From contig JAUZTB010000074.1 of assembly GCA_034780895.1 (NCBI GenBank), positions 14,899,260 to 14,963,259 on the forward strand: 64,000 bases of DNA. Direction: 5' to 3'. The position numbers were made by a program, and so were the translations under genes. Numbering within the stretch: position 1 is the stretch's first letter; each line of letters begins with the position of its first letter. This DNA comes from Rhynchobatus australiae. Taxonomy: Eukaryota. This document shows, piece after piece, positions 40,501-46,500 of this stretch. The notes under the pieces were generated by a model that saw only the letters and a list, made by a program, of their open reading frames with translations, searched no databases and was not told the DNA's origin.

Positions 40501-43500
40501 NNNNNNNNNNNNNNNNNNNNNNNNNNNNNNNNNNNNNNNNNNNNNNNNNNNNNNNNNNNNNNNNNNNNNNNNNNNNNNNNNNNNNNNNNNNTTGAATTAT
40601 CTGCAGCAGACTTTATGAGCAATCTTGCCCTCCAACAAGCTGGCACCTATGCTGTTCTTTACCCCGCCTTGATTTTAGTGCATAGGGTGAAGGCAGTCTT
40701 TTTCCCAGGGAAGGGGAACGAAAGACTAGAAGGCCTAAGTTTAAAGTAAGAGGTGGGAGAATTAAAAGTAACCTAAGAAGCAATTTCTTCAGGCAGAGTG
40801 GTGGTATATGGAATGAGCTGCCAGAGAAAGTGCTTGGGGAGGGTATAAAAACATTTAAAAAACATTTGGATAAGTACGTGGATAGGAGGGGTTCAGAGGG
40901 ATATGGGCCAAATGCAGGCAAATAGGACTAGCTTGGTGGGCTGCATTATCAGCATGGATGAGTTGGGCCAGAGGGCTTGTTTCCATGCTGTATTACTCTA
41001 TGATTCAGACCACTTGCATTCCTGTATTACATCATATGAAGATTCTGTCACTATGCTATCCTCGGAATATTAGGCAGTGTTAGTATCCACTGTATGTGTA
41101 AAAGTGAGTAATAATGTGTCTTCTCCCTCTTGTTGTTAAACCATCTACCAGGGTTAGATTTGCTGGGCATCTGAGATGAAAAATGGCCAATGATGCAGGG
41201 AAGGAAGTAATATACCTGAGTTAGGGAGACATGGAATGTTAGAATGAAGACAGAGCATGTGGATTCTATCAATTTCAATGGTTTCAACCCTCCCAATGGC
41301 CACAGCAATGGGAATCCCAATAATCTTCCATGCAGGGCATGCAGATTCATTAATCTACCTTCTGATGTCTTCAGTTCTCAACTATTGTGTTCTGCAAGTC
41401 AGAGGGATGCATGGCAATGTCATGCAATCAATTTGATTNNNGTGATTATCAAGACAATGTGGCTGGCAGTGTATGCAAACTGAGGTATGTGGGTGTGCAG
41501 CAGTCCTAATTATGTGTGTAATGCAGTATACGAATGTTGGCCTAACTGGTAAACATTGTTGGTGGCTGAGTAACAACAGTGAGTTGTATTAAGCAGCTTT
41601 CTGAGATGGTATGATACAGAAGTTAAAGACGTATTCACTAACCTCTCATTTGACATCATTCTGCACCATTCAGCACTGAATCCATAATTCAGGGACTTGA
41701 TGTGTTACACCTCCCTCTAAAAGTACCAGCTCTTACTGTTGTAAGCATCTGGATAACCTCCTGGCCCATAATGAAAAGTTCTTCAACTAGCCACCCCTTC
41801 CATCAAATCTGAAAAAACCATTAGAAACTGTCCCCTCCTGTATAGTGCCATATTTCAATGCATTCCAGATCAGATTGGCAATGCACATCTCCCCTTTCTT
41901 GCTGATGTTGTCAATCAATGAGGTGGCTGGATGCTACAGTCATGGAAATGAATGGATGGCACATTGTTGTTATGCTTCCCTCATCCACAAAATGGCCGGC
42001 AGTTATTTGAGCATCATGATCCCGATACGTTTTCAGAGGCTATGAATTTAGTTCTCACGGAATCCATTATTCTCAAATAATTGCTGTGGAAACATGGTCT
42101 CTTACCCAAACACCAGACATTTAATATTGGATTGAGCATAAAAGTAAAAAAATAGCATTGAAATTCCCTCCTAAGAACAGAATGACAGATTTCCATTAGC
42201 TTTATTTGAGCTCAGGATGATGACACCTGCACTTGGCTGTTATTTGCAGACTTGTGTGTCATCTACAATGAAGCTTTTATAAAAGCTAGAGCAATAAACA
42301 ATCTGCTGGAGGAACTCAGCAGGTTGAGGAGCACCTGTGGGAGGAAGGAATCGTTGAAGTTTCGGGTCGAAACCCTGCAATCAGGACTATAAAGCTATAA
42401 TTGTGATGTTTACAAATTGCTACTTTTCATGCAAAATCAAATTAAGCTGCTTTCATTTGAGTCCAATAAAAAAAACTCAACATGGTAAAAGGTTAAGCTT
42501 TCTTACAGTTTGCATTTGAGATTCTCCAGGTCTTTCTCTGCAGTCTCCATTAAGTCTTCTTGGCAATGATGAATTACGTAAGCATTGTGATGAATCACAG
42601 CTCTGGGTCTGCAAGTCAATTTTTTCTTGGTCTCCCTTTTTTGAACTGACAGTTTCATTTGTTTTTATTGTACCAGAATGGTCATCACCAGAACTATCCA
42701 ATTTATTCCATTCACTTTTAGACCCAAATTTGCTACAGTCTAGAGAGTCTGAATGCCAGGTACATGAGCATTCTATACTAACTGGCTTAGTTTTTGCTTT
42801 GTTGACACCATTTTCAGTACGAGTGCCTAAGTCAAAGGAACAGTCTGATTTGTCTCTATTAAATGTACTTGCATGATTAAGTTCTGAAGGATCATGATGT
42901 ATAGGAGGGGTATGTAGTTTTATTTCAGAATTATATGTAGAGGTCACAATGTTCTTATGGAAGGAACCAGAACATGATGACTCAATTTTAGATTTTTTGT
43001 CAATTACAGTGTTGCCAGATACTGGGCACTTCCAGTTCACTTTACCTATGTAATTGATTTGTGNNNNNNNNNNNNNNNNNNNNNNNNNNNNNNNNNNNNN
43101 NNNNNNNNNNNNNNNNNNNNNNNNNNNNNNNNNNNNNNNNNNNNNNNNNNNNNNNNNNNNNNNGCCTGTCTTCAAAATTTTTTTGAAAAAGTTGGATTGT
43201 TAGTAATTGCTTTGAGTAGCAATATTTATAATGTTGGGAATATTTAGTTAATTTTTTTAATCTAACCCAACACCAACCATGGCTCTCTAGTTAACAACAC
43301 TACCTATTTTGTCTATAGATGGTCCTGTGTCCAATTTTTCCCAACTATCACTTAATAACCCAACTGGCCTCTGCATTGCTCTCTTAGGAAGAGGATGAAT
43401 AGCTGGAGGTCTGGCTCCGTTTTGCTGTCCAGTGCTGTCTACCCAAGATGTGCTTGTGTGGCCGGCCGAGTCAAACACACACGATGCCTTACAGCAGATT

Positions 43501-46500
43501 GGTTGTTGAGCTGAAGCCTGGTTGGCATCTGCAGCACTGTGCTTCAGGAGGTTGAGAGGAGGGAGAACAGGCGAAAAACAAAACCCAGGATTGGATTGAA
43601 ATAAAGACTTCCTGTTCTGTAACAACCATGTTCTTCTCTTCCCAGGGCATTAGAAAAGAACCTCCTAACAGAAATACAACTGAATTTTTCATATTGAGGA
43701 GAAGACTGCCAATGACAACACCCTATTTTATAGCTTCCCCTTGGAGGTCTGTTTGGGTATAAGTTTTTAAAAACCTGACCCAGTCGTAAGTCTGAGCCTG
43801 AAGAATTTTTAACCCGTATCTTGTCTGACCACGTAAATGTAACAGCCTCTGTGTTACTCGTCTGAGGGTGAGATACCAAGTATTGATGAAGAACACAGCA
43901 TGTGGGCAGTACTAAACAAATCCCCCTGGTCTGGATACAGACTCAACCTAGTGTAACCTAAACCCAACACTTGTTGGCTCGCATCCAGTTTGGTTGTGTG
44001 CCAGGTTTTACTTCCTTCTGAGGTTAAACATCCAATTCCTTTCACTGGGTGCCCTATGAATATTCTGTGCTGCTACACCAGTTAATCAATAGAATTAAGG
44101 GTTTTTTGGTTTAAGCTCTGTTTTAACTAGGGCCAAAAATATAAATGGCAGTTATGCTAAATAAAGCAATGCCTGAGGTGCTGTCTCAACAGGTCCAGGG
44201 TCTGCTTTCTGACTACTGTGAGAGGTGAGAGTTTGTTTCAGATTTGCCACTGGTATCAGTAAAAGAATCTGCTGGAAATAGTTTTCTTCGTGTCTGTGCC
44301 TTTGGGGAAGCTGTTTTATCATTGTCAAGTTTAACCTTTCTACATAACATGACTGGAGTATCTTGAGAAGAGGTTCTGCTCGTTTTTTTGTTTTCCAAGA
44401 AACCACTTTCATTGTGGGTGACAGAACTACAAAGAGTCTCTTTTCCAGAACTTCTTGGGCTTTCCTCTTCAAAAGAGCTCTGCAGTAGTTTTGCACTTGT
44501 TGAACTTGACTCTTGTACGAGATTAAAATGGCTTCCAGAAATAGATGGAGGATTTTGATCACAATAACTCAGCTGTTGGGCAATTCGTGCAATCACTTCT
44601 TCCCTTTCCTGAAGCAAGCTTCCTATCAAAGGGTTCATCTCACCTGAAGAAATTTGAGTAGATGGACTGCTGGTTTGATTGGAATCTGTCACAGAAAATG
44701 ACTTCAATGTTTTGACTGTATGGTTTTCATAGGGATGTACTTTAGTTATTTCAGCAGTATTTGTCCAATTACAAGACTGAGCCTTAGGCTGTGAACTTCT
44801 GGTATCAGATATTTTGTCATTATCACTTAATGTTCCCACTTTGCTTGTTTCCAAGATCTCAGGAGAAGGGCATTTTCTTACATTTACTGAACTTGTTGGC
44901 AACAATTCACGGTTTCGAATGGCGGTGCATGCTTGCTTACTGTACTTCTGTTGTACTCCTGGCATGTTGCAGTAGTCTTGCTCTTTTACACTGGTACGCT
45001 GATAAGCATCCTTTTCTTGACTGGGGATATTTTTCCCAAAGAAACTGAAGTTGGTGTGAATACTGCATGTCAGCAACGGGTAACTCGGTTGCCTAGGCAG
45101 GGATAGTACACTCACTCGCAAGGCCAGGCTGTGTGAAATATTTGGAACTGGAAACACATGTTCAACAGGGGGTTGGGTAAAATTTAGCAACATATCTTCA
45201 TCAGTTGCGCTTATCCTAAATGTTAAGAAAAATAAGTTTAAGAAGTCATGAAAATTCTGTTATGCAAAGCATCATTAACACATACTATATCAGTACTGAG
45301 CTATTTTATTTTAGCTGGGGCACTGAAAATGAATTTACTAAAATCAGTCTGATATCCCTGGCCCTGATATCCTGCTTCTCACCTCCTTCTGGAAGAGTTT
45401 TTGCGGTCAAGTCAACCTCAATTCAATAGGTAGTTCTCTTGCCTAGAATCTGAAGGTTGAACAGTCAAGCCCCACTCCAGCACAAATATATAGACTGGAT
45501 GTTCCAATGCAGTATTAAGGACATGCTGCATTGTCGGGGAGGCATCGTTCAGATGAAATGTTAAACCAAGGTCCGATTAATTCTCTAAAGTGGATGATAC
45601 TATTTTGAAGAACAAGGGAATTACCAAAGAGGCGTGACCAAAATTTATCTCTCAGTTTATCTTATCTTATCAAAACAGTTGATCTTGCCATTTGCCTTTT
45701 GCTGCTGGCAAGAGTGTACTATGTATACCCTACTTGACATGTTACTGTACTTCAAAAGTATTCTGTTGAGATTAAAGTGCTTCAGGACTTGCCAAGGTTC
45801 TGAGGGNNNNNNNNNNNNNNNNNNNNNNNNNNNNNNNNNNNNNNNNNNNNNNNNNNNNNNNNNNNNNNNNNNNNNNNNNNNNNNNNNNNNNNNNNNNNNN
45901 NNNNNNNNNNNNNNNNNNNNNNNNNNNNNNNNNNNNNNNNNNNNNNNNNNNNNNNNNNNNNNNNNNNNNNNNNNNNNNNNNNNNNNNNNNNNNNNNNNNN
46001 NNNNNNNNNNNNNNNNNNNNNNNNNNNNNNNNNNNNNNNNNNNNNNNNNNNNNNNNNNNNNNTTTCAATTAACTTGGTGACTACAGTATCCTTTTTTTTA
46101 ATGTATTTGTACTTCTGATTCCTACAAGCTATATGTGGAGAAATATTTCTGACACCAAGCCATAACCTTAAAATTGGAACCAGATTCTGGATTCTTCAAC
46201 CAAAAGGTAGCAGCTTCTTGTTTACCCTATTAAACCTTCAAATTGGAACCAGATTCTGGATTCTTCAACCAAAAGGTAGCAGCTTCTTGTTTACCCTATT
46301 AAACCTTCAAATCACCTTAAACACTTACACAGATCATTCTTTAATGTGCTGCATTCAAGGGAATTAAGCCTAGTCAATACAGCTTACTGTCATAACTCAA
46401 CACTGGTAAATATATCCTACATATCCTTAAATGCAAATAATTATTTCTTGAGGTGCAATCTCCAGAACTCCAAATGGGGTTTGTATAGCTGTAACATATC

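What the first reader, a model, noticed from the sequence alone, without database searches (positions are those of the whole stretch)
43064..44240. ~1-kb foreign segment breaks the large ATOSA exon at the second ETNPLIGSLLQER repeat
Seen: the ATOSA frame reads ...FTDTSGKSETNS-HLSQ-TAG (44215-44213) with many more stops after it. There is no convincing GT donor before the stop, and ATOSA-like coding sequence resumes only beyond a 100-N gap (43063 to the donor at 42507). All other exons are intact and in phase. Recalled: human FAM214A has one large exon here with two copies of GETNPLIGSL(I/L)QERQxxIARIAQHL. Here the first copy is intact and the break falls just after SETN, where the second should begin. 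The inserted DNA resembles none of the local repeats, yet is tiled by overlapping minus-strand open frames (43854-44045, 43544-43879, 43287-43625), which suggests a frameshifted coding relic. Inference: a mobile or viral insertion creating a null allele or a new intron, a lineage-specific exon extension with indel errors, or a contig mis-join.
Basis: partly seen in the sequence, partly recalled or inferred. Interest (0 to 1): 0.7.

Follow-up and report, generated by a model that had tools for sequence, protein, structure and literature searches.

The report
Assembly chimera faking a broken ATOSA
The 1-kb "insertion" that seems to break the ATOSA gene of this ray is most likely a genome-assembly error: the exon is whole in two related animals, and the stray piece runs on into an intron of a ceramide-synthase gene on another scaffold, likely joined here through a 22-letter word the two places share.

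Summary
The stop (44215-44213), the foreign 1.07-kb segment and the 100-N gap are in the assembly as described, but the break is very probably not in the animal. In two related species one contig joins 44232 to 43063 with 47 other bases, which restores the frame and matches the Pristis protein residue for residue in length. In the best-matching run the exon contig continues as K-H-P-A like the orthologues. The segment's contigs in three runs leave the exon at 44253, so the two loci share only a 22-nt word; 0 of 20 laid contigs span the window's junction. The segment's last 51 nt equal the start of a contig after a 100-N gap on scaffold C94, inside intron 1 of a CERS6-like gene, and the best run's contig continues into it. 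The segment is single-copy and non-coding (10 of 11 indels in relatives are not multiples of three), with no viral or transposon match. The 'second ETNPLIGSLLQER repeat' is absent from sharks and rays (18 of 18 have one). Verdict: chimeric contig, not a real feature.

The parts
44232..45215 (-). ATOSA (FAM214A) large exon, 5' part; acceptor TTTAG|G at 45215; true exon sequence in the assembly ends at 44232
   Evidence: 94% identity to Pristis pectinata ATOSA; acceptor; contigs of X1, X2, X4 match down to 44232
44232..44253 (.). 22-nt word shared by the ATOSA exon and the foreign locus; the inferred point of the mis-join
   Evidence: Exon contigs match to 44232; segment contigs of X1, X3, X4 match to 44253 and then carry the same other flank (tables 7 and 8)
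43164..44231 (.). Foreign segment: single-copy non-coding DNA, inferred to be part of intron 1 of a CERS6-like ceramide synthase gene on scaffold C94
44213..44215 (-). Apparent premature TAG, 17 nt inside the foreign segment
43684..43724 (.). 41-nt island inside the segment, copied from C74:25.8 Mb; 12-nt homology at entry, 5-nt duplication; absent in three relatives
   Evidence: 48-nt exact match 43677-43724; joint 43683-43725 in X2, X3, X4; junction arithmetic
43164..43214 (-). 51-nt contig end identical to the first 51 nt of the contig after the 100-N gap at C94:2165037-2165136
   Evidence: X1 contig continues into C94 sequence
43064..43163 (.). 100-N scaffold gap; 47 nt of ATOSA exon are missing from the assembly here
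   Evidence: 47 letters between 43063 and 44232 in X2 and X4; not found elsewhere in the assembly
42507..43063 (-). ATOSA large exon, 3' part, to donor ACT|GTAAGA
   Evidence: 92% identity to P0002 residues 435-619; donor

Best explanation
The segment is most likely a chimeric-contig artefact: the ATOSA exon and an unrelated single-copy intron share a 22-nt word (44232-44253), and the assembler likely crossed from one to the other there. Shown: relatives carry an uninterrupted exon with 47 nt at this place; the best-matching run holds each locus with its own native flank; the segment's far end is identical to a contig start on scaffold C94, in intron 1 of a CERS6-like gene. Inferred: at low depth, a small-k step or contig extension followed the wrong branch at the 22-mer, carried about 1.07 kb of the C94 intron onto the exon, lost 47 nt of exon, and left 100-N gaps at both loci when scaffolding put the rest of ATOSA and the rest of C94 in their right order. 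ATOSA is predicted to be intact in the animal.
For: Single contigs join 43063 to 44232 with 47 letters between in X2 (79 letters on the shorter side) and X4 (189-255). 983+47+2 nt is a multiple of three and lands on P0002 residue 435. The X1 exon contig leaves the window at 44232 with 12 letters that read K-H-P-A, as in Pristis SETKHPAE. Segment contigs in X1, X3 and X4 end their match at 44253 with the same other flank (28, 10 and 82 letters). 0 of the 20 records laid on 42850-44420 span the junction as assembled. The 51-nt end overlap with C94:2165137 is exact, and the 30 shown letters of the X1 loose end equal C94 bases 52-81. The gap lies between CERS6-like exon 1 (2177341-2177526) and exon 2 (2152402-2152518). 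The segment has one copy in the assembly and no extra depth in X1 (2.4-6.2 against 4.6-7.2 for ATOSA contigs); in X2 and X4 it has about half the depth of ATOSA (2.8-3.7 against 7.2-7.4; 5.1-6.2 against 14.2), so it behaves as another locus. A chance 22-mer shared with some place in a 2.2-Gb genome is expected about 0.4 times per 1.6-kb exon. The window has 21 gaps.
Against: Only Logan contigs were laid, no raw or long reads; contigs drop rare variants, so a rare or mosaic junction is not excluded. The X1 native exon flank is only 12 letters, below the tool's 31-letter bridging rule, and X1 has no contig over 42923-43063. Whether X1 is the assembled individual is not known. The flank beyond 44253 was not found in the assembly, so the link of the segment to the left side of the C94 gap is untested. 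The assembler and its k are unknown; the small-k step is recalled behaviour of multi-k de Bruijn assemblers, not tested. In X3 the segment is not at half depth (3.1 against 2.0-4.2).
Confidence: 0.95

Rival explanations
1. Real private rearrangement: in the sequenced animal one ATOSA allele carries a microhomology-mediated template switch or translocation into the C94 intron (heterozygous or mosaic null allele).
For: A 22-nt microhomology is also what microhomology-mediated repair would use (established knowledge). The segment holds a 41-nt island with a templated-insertion signature. Contigs cannot show absence (caveat).
Against: X1 contigs run through both ends of the 22-mer into native flanks without a break; 0 of 20 records span the junction; the segment is missing from its home locus, not duplicated, and shows no extra depth.
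Confidence: 0.03
2. Mobile-element or endogenous-virus insertion leaving a frameshifted coding relic.
For: Open frames of 120 and 132 aa exceed dinucleotide shuffles at P = 0.006-0.027.
Against: Single copy. No Pfam match over a curated cut-off for 10 frames in or overlapping the segment; no homologue of the 132-aa frame among longer proteins; no relative in viral contigs for either long frame; best Atlas score 0.77, chance level; no Rfam match at gathering score; no terminal inverted repeat among the 25 longest of 112 pairs. 10 of 11 listed indels in relatives are not multiples of three. The segment exists in three relatives at a locus other than ATOSA.
Confidence: 0.01
3. New intron or lineage-specific exon extension with consensus indel errors.
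For: A weak GT exists at 44216 just before the stop; the gap hides a possible acceptor.
Against: No ATOSA-like signal: 0 tblastn hits at E <= 0.05 of 120 ATOSA proteins on the segment. X1 matches the segment without gaps, so it has no consensus indels. The X1 exon continues with orthologous codons.
Confidence: 0.01

Closest known systems
Chimeric contig (misassembly) at a short shared word in a low-depth short-read assembly, producing false gene loss
   Same: Two unique loci share a word shorter than the final k; native flanks of both are in the read contigs; the moved piece is missing at its home locus; the contig end overlaps another scaffold's contig start exactly; fixed 100-N gaps at both places.
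   Different: Nothing essential. The assembler is not known here; the general mechanism is recalled, and the paper search (listing only) gave no paper on this case.
ATOSA / FAM214A (Atos homolog A; PF13915 DUF4210, PF13889 chromosome segregation domain)
   Same: 94% identity to Pristis pectinata ATOSA over 329 aa; all exons present. Function of the family from PMC9194793 (passages): nuclear regulator of mitochondrial bioenergetics.
   Different: 47 nt of the large exon are missing from this assembly. Cartilaginous fish have one NPLIGSLLQER motif where most listed amniote proteins have two.
CERS6-like ceramide synthase (PF03798 TLC, PF00046), intron 1, scaffold C94
   Same: The gap whose right-hand contig overlaps the segment lies between exons 1 and 2; exon 1 is 89% identical to Scyliorhinus torazame ceramide synthase 6-like.
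   Different: The paralogue's identity (CERS5 or CERS6 lineage) was not resolved by a tree; the segment itself holds no CERS exon.
Templated insertion by microhomology-mediated repair (polymerase-theta type; recalled)
   Same: The 41-nt island has 12-nt homology at entry and a 5-nt duplication at exit.
   Different: Applies at most to the 41-nt island, not to the 1-kb segment; whether the island is real is unresolved.

Membership tests
Chimeric contig | Both loci have their native flanks in independent data | tested here: met
   Exon flank in X1 (12 nt), X2, X4 (full bridge); segment flank in X1, X3, X4
Chimeric contig | No sequence support for the assembled junction | tested here: met
   0 of 20 laid contigs span 44253-44232 as assembled; contigs only, raw reads not available
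Chimeric contig | Displaced piece is missing from, and abuts, its home locus | tested here: met
   51-nt exact overlap with the contig after gap C94:2165037-2165136; X1 contig continues into it. Left side of that gap not linked
Chimeric contig | Raw or long reads of the assembled individual refute the junction | not testable with these tools
   All 22 listed runs are kept as contigs
DNA transposon insertion | Terminal inverted repeats | tested here: not met
   No pair at the segment ends among the 25 longest of 112 inverted pairs
DNA transposon insertion | Target-site duplication | tested here: inconclusive
   The far end abuts the N gap; 47 nt of exon are lost rather than duplicated
DNA transposon insertion | Multiple genomic copies or transposase homology | tested here: not met
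   One full copy (the search skips very common words); no Pfam or protein match
Endogenous viral element | Similarity to viral proteins and coding-type conservation | tested here: not met
   negative (pattern searches reach close relatives only); 10 of 11 indels in relatives are not multiples of three
New spliceosomal intron | GT-AG ends whose removal restores the orthologous protein, present in genomic data at this site | tested here: not met
   17 orthologous residues are absent from the assembly and the segment is not at this site in X1, X2 or X4
ATOSA/FAM214A orthologue | Sequence similarity and exon order over the whole protein | tested here: met

The most novel reading that the evidence does not exclude
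The sequenced ray carries a real heterozygous or mosaic ATOSA null allele, made by a microhomology-mediated template switch into an intron on a probably X-linked scaffold, in a stretch that also holds a second, 41-nt templated insertion from a distant locus.
Probability: 0.03. Interest if true: 0.4.

Novelty: not a real feature. Interest (0 to 1): 0.05.

Why it matters
It matters only as quality control. An annotation of this assembly would call ATOSA a pseudogene or truncated in this ray and would misplace about 1 kb of a ceramide-synthase intron. Apparent gene breaks beside 100-N gaps in this genome should be checked against reads before they are read as gene loss. If the rival were true, it would be a private loss-of-function allele in a conserved regulator of mitochondrial metabolism.

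Tried and rejected
Second-repeat reading: rejected by motif counts. Coding relic: Pfam on 12 frames, two weak hits under their cut-offs (MAGI_u5 E 0.043, P2RX7_C E 0.006); protein search with the 132-aa frame, none of 97 candidates; viral contigs, none; Atlas, chance level; the HMMER search of representatives with the 120-aa frame was queued and had not finished, so it gives no result. Rfam: two matches far below gathering score. The missing 17 residues were not found elsewhere in the assembly, nor the flank beyond 44253; blanks in an incomplete assembly. No RNA holder listed. X1 has no contig over 42923-43063 (no evidence either way). A 71%, 84-nt match of the segment 4.4 kb from the C94 gap was not used. 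The hedgehog exon on C94 scored best with Shh in the PDB search, so it was not identified as Dhh. Paper searches for FAM214A with shark (2 papers, listing only) and for misassembly terms showed nothing on this locus. Earlier findings: none. My notebook gave the C94 gap as 120 N; one search shows 100 N.

Full report
Observation. On the minus strand the large ATOSA exon starts at 45215, reads to ...FTDTSGKSETNSHLSQ and stops at TAG 44215-44213; a 100-N gap lies at 43064-43163; ATOSA-like coding resumes at 43061 and ends at the donor at 42507. The closest named protein is Pristis pectinata ATOSA at 94% identity, so the window is from a ray. tblastn places P0002 residues 87-417 at 45226-44234 and 435-619 at 43061-42507, so 17 residues are missing.

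The second-repeat idea fails. A pattern for the QER...IARIA motif finds one copy in all 18 top hits (17 named cartilaginous-fish proteins and one unnamed) and two copies in 86 of the remaining 102; 14 have one and 2 have none by this pattern. In rays and sharks the place of the break reads SETKHPAERTVSKHGKAELSQINY or close to it. The window's SETN is SETK with the last base taken from the foreign DNA.

Where the segment comes from. A search of the own genome with 43164-44230 gave three matches: itself, 51 nt at C94:2165137, and 55 nt at C74:25.8 Mb; a second search with 43700-44253 found only itself. The 51 nt are the end of the window contig and the first 51 bases of the contig after a 100-N gap on C94. 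That gap lies between exon 1 (2177341-2177526) and exon 2 (2152402-2152518) of a ceramide synthase 6-like gene.

Read evidence. Of 22 runs listed, all kept as contigs, I laid four (X1-X4, four organisms, four studies; X1 holds 0.91 of the words and may be the source sample, so it is not independent of the assembly). In X2 and X4 a single contig joins 43063 to 44232 with 47 other letters. 983 nt of whole-codon-start exon plus 47 plus 2 is a multiple of three and lands on residue 435 of P0002. In X1 the exon contig leaves the window at 44232 with 12 letters that translate to K-H-P-A. Segment contigs in X1, X3 and X4 match up to 44253 and then carry the same other flank. The two loci therefore share only 44232-44253, 22 nt. 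None of the 20 records laid on 42850-44420 spans the junction as assembled. At the other end the X1 segment contig runs 68 letters past 43164, and the 30 shown equal C94 bases 52-81. X3 has no contig on the exon side of the junction, and X2 none on the segment side.

Mechanism (inferred). A chance 22-mer shared between a 1.6-kb exon and some place in a 2.2-Gb genome is expected about 0.4 times. At a contig depth of about 5-7 (X1), an assembly step with a small k, or contig extension by short overlaps, can cross at such a word; that multi-k assemblers begin near k = 21 is recalled, and the assembler used here is unknown. The contig then took about 1.07 kb of the C94 intron, and scaffolding left 100-N gaps at both loci. 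The window has 21 gaps and a near-exact 69-nt tandem duplication near one of them.

The segment is non-coding. All 11 indels listed in relatives lie in 43460-44227 and 10 are not multiples of three; the exon pieces of X2 and X4 in the same call have no gaps; X4 differs at 35 of about 430 and 23 of about 390 segment positions against 16 of 403 exon positions. The open frames beat shuffles modestly (P 0.006-0.027), but 17 of 118 ordinary stretches of this genome hold a frame as long. Searches for homologues were negative; one further search did not finish. No terminal inverted repeats.

Against this reading. No raw or long reads; contigs drop rare variants; the native exon flank in X1 is 12 letters, under the tool's bridging rule; the flank beyond 44253 is not in the assembly, so the left side of the C94 gap is not linked. 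A private heterozygous rearrangement is therefore not strictly excluded (about 3%).

Side results. In X2 and X4 the segment has about half the depth of ATOSA contigs; in X3 it does not, and X1 is mixed. C94 (14.1 Mb) carries a three-gene Wnt cluster at 4.55-4.61 Mb and a hedgehog exon at 5.09 Mb, which fits the Wnt1/6b/10b and Dhh content reported for shark and ray X chromosomes (PMC12318234, passages and section 7 read). The paralogues were not identified (ranks Shh first), so X-linkage is a lead only; the supplements of that paper were not consulted. A 41-nt island in the segment is copied from C74:25.8 Mb with 12-nt entry homology and a 5-nt duplication and is absent in X2, X3 and X4; X1 contigs break at it, so it is unresolved. 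ATOSA function is from PMC9194793 (passages). Paper searches (listings) showed nothing on this locus.

Verdict. An assembly chimera; not a real feature. Interest 0.05.

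Noticed in passing
window 43684-43724; L003 1508-1555 (C74:25.8 Mb): 41-nt island copied from a locus 11 Mb away, with 12-nt homology at entry and a 5-nt duplication; absent in three relatives, which all hold the donor locus. 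It could be a real private templated insertion or a second artefact; X1 contigs stop at 43680 and start exactly at 43725.
   Followed up: partly
G000:C94 (L005-L009): Scaffold C94 may be the X chromosome: three clustered Wnt genes and a hedgehog gene, and the segment that belongs there has about half depth in two of four runs. Paralogue identity not settled.
   Followed up: partly
window 44232 to 43063 (missing 47 nt): Predicted short isoforms of Pristis, Cetorhinus and Carcharodon (P0001, P0009, P0010, P0011) leave the large exon at HP[AT]ERT, so a conserved internal alternative donor seems to lie inside the stretch this assembly lost.
   Followed up: partly
ATOSA proteins P0001-P0120: The NPLIGSLLQER...IARIA motif is single in cartilaginous fish and the three sturgeon proteins and double in most listed amniotes, which suggests an internal duplication on the lineage to tetrapods.
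   Followed up: partly
window 46164-46312: 69-nt unit repeated 2.2 times at 98% identity about 100 nt from a gap; likely a gap-filling artefact.
   Followed up: no
C94:2160718-2160801 and window 43860-43940: 84-nt match at 71% identity between the segment and a place 4.3 kb from the C94 gap; an old local duplication or repeat fragment.
   Followed up: no
window 42289-42380: Very high-copy short repeat in the intron after the exon (contig depth above 100,000).
   Followed up: no
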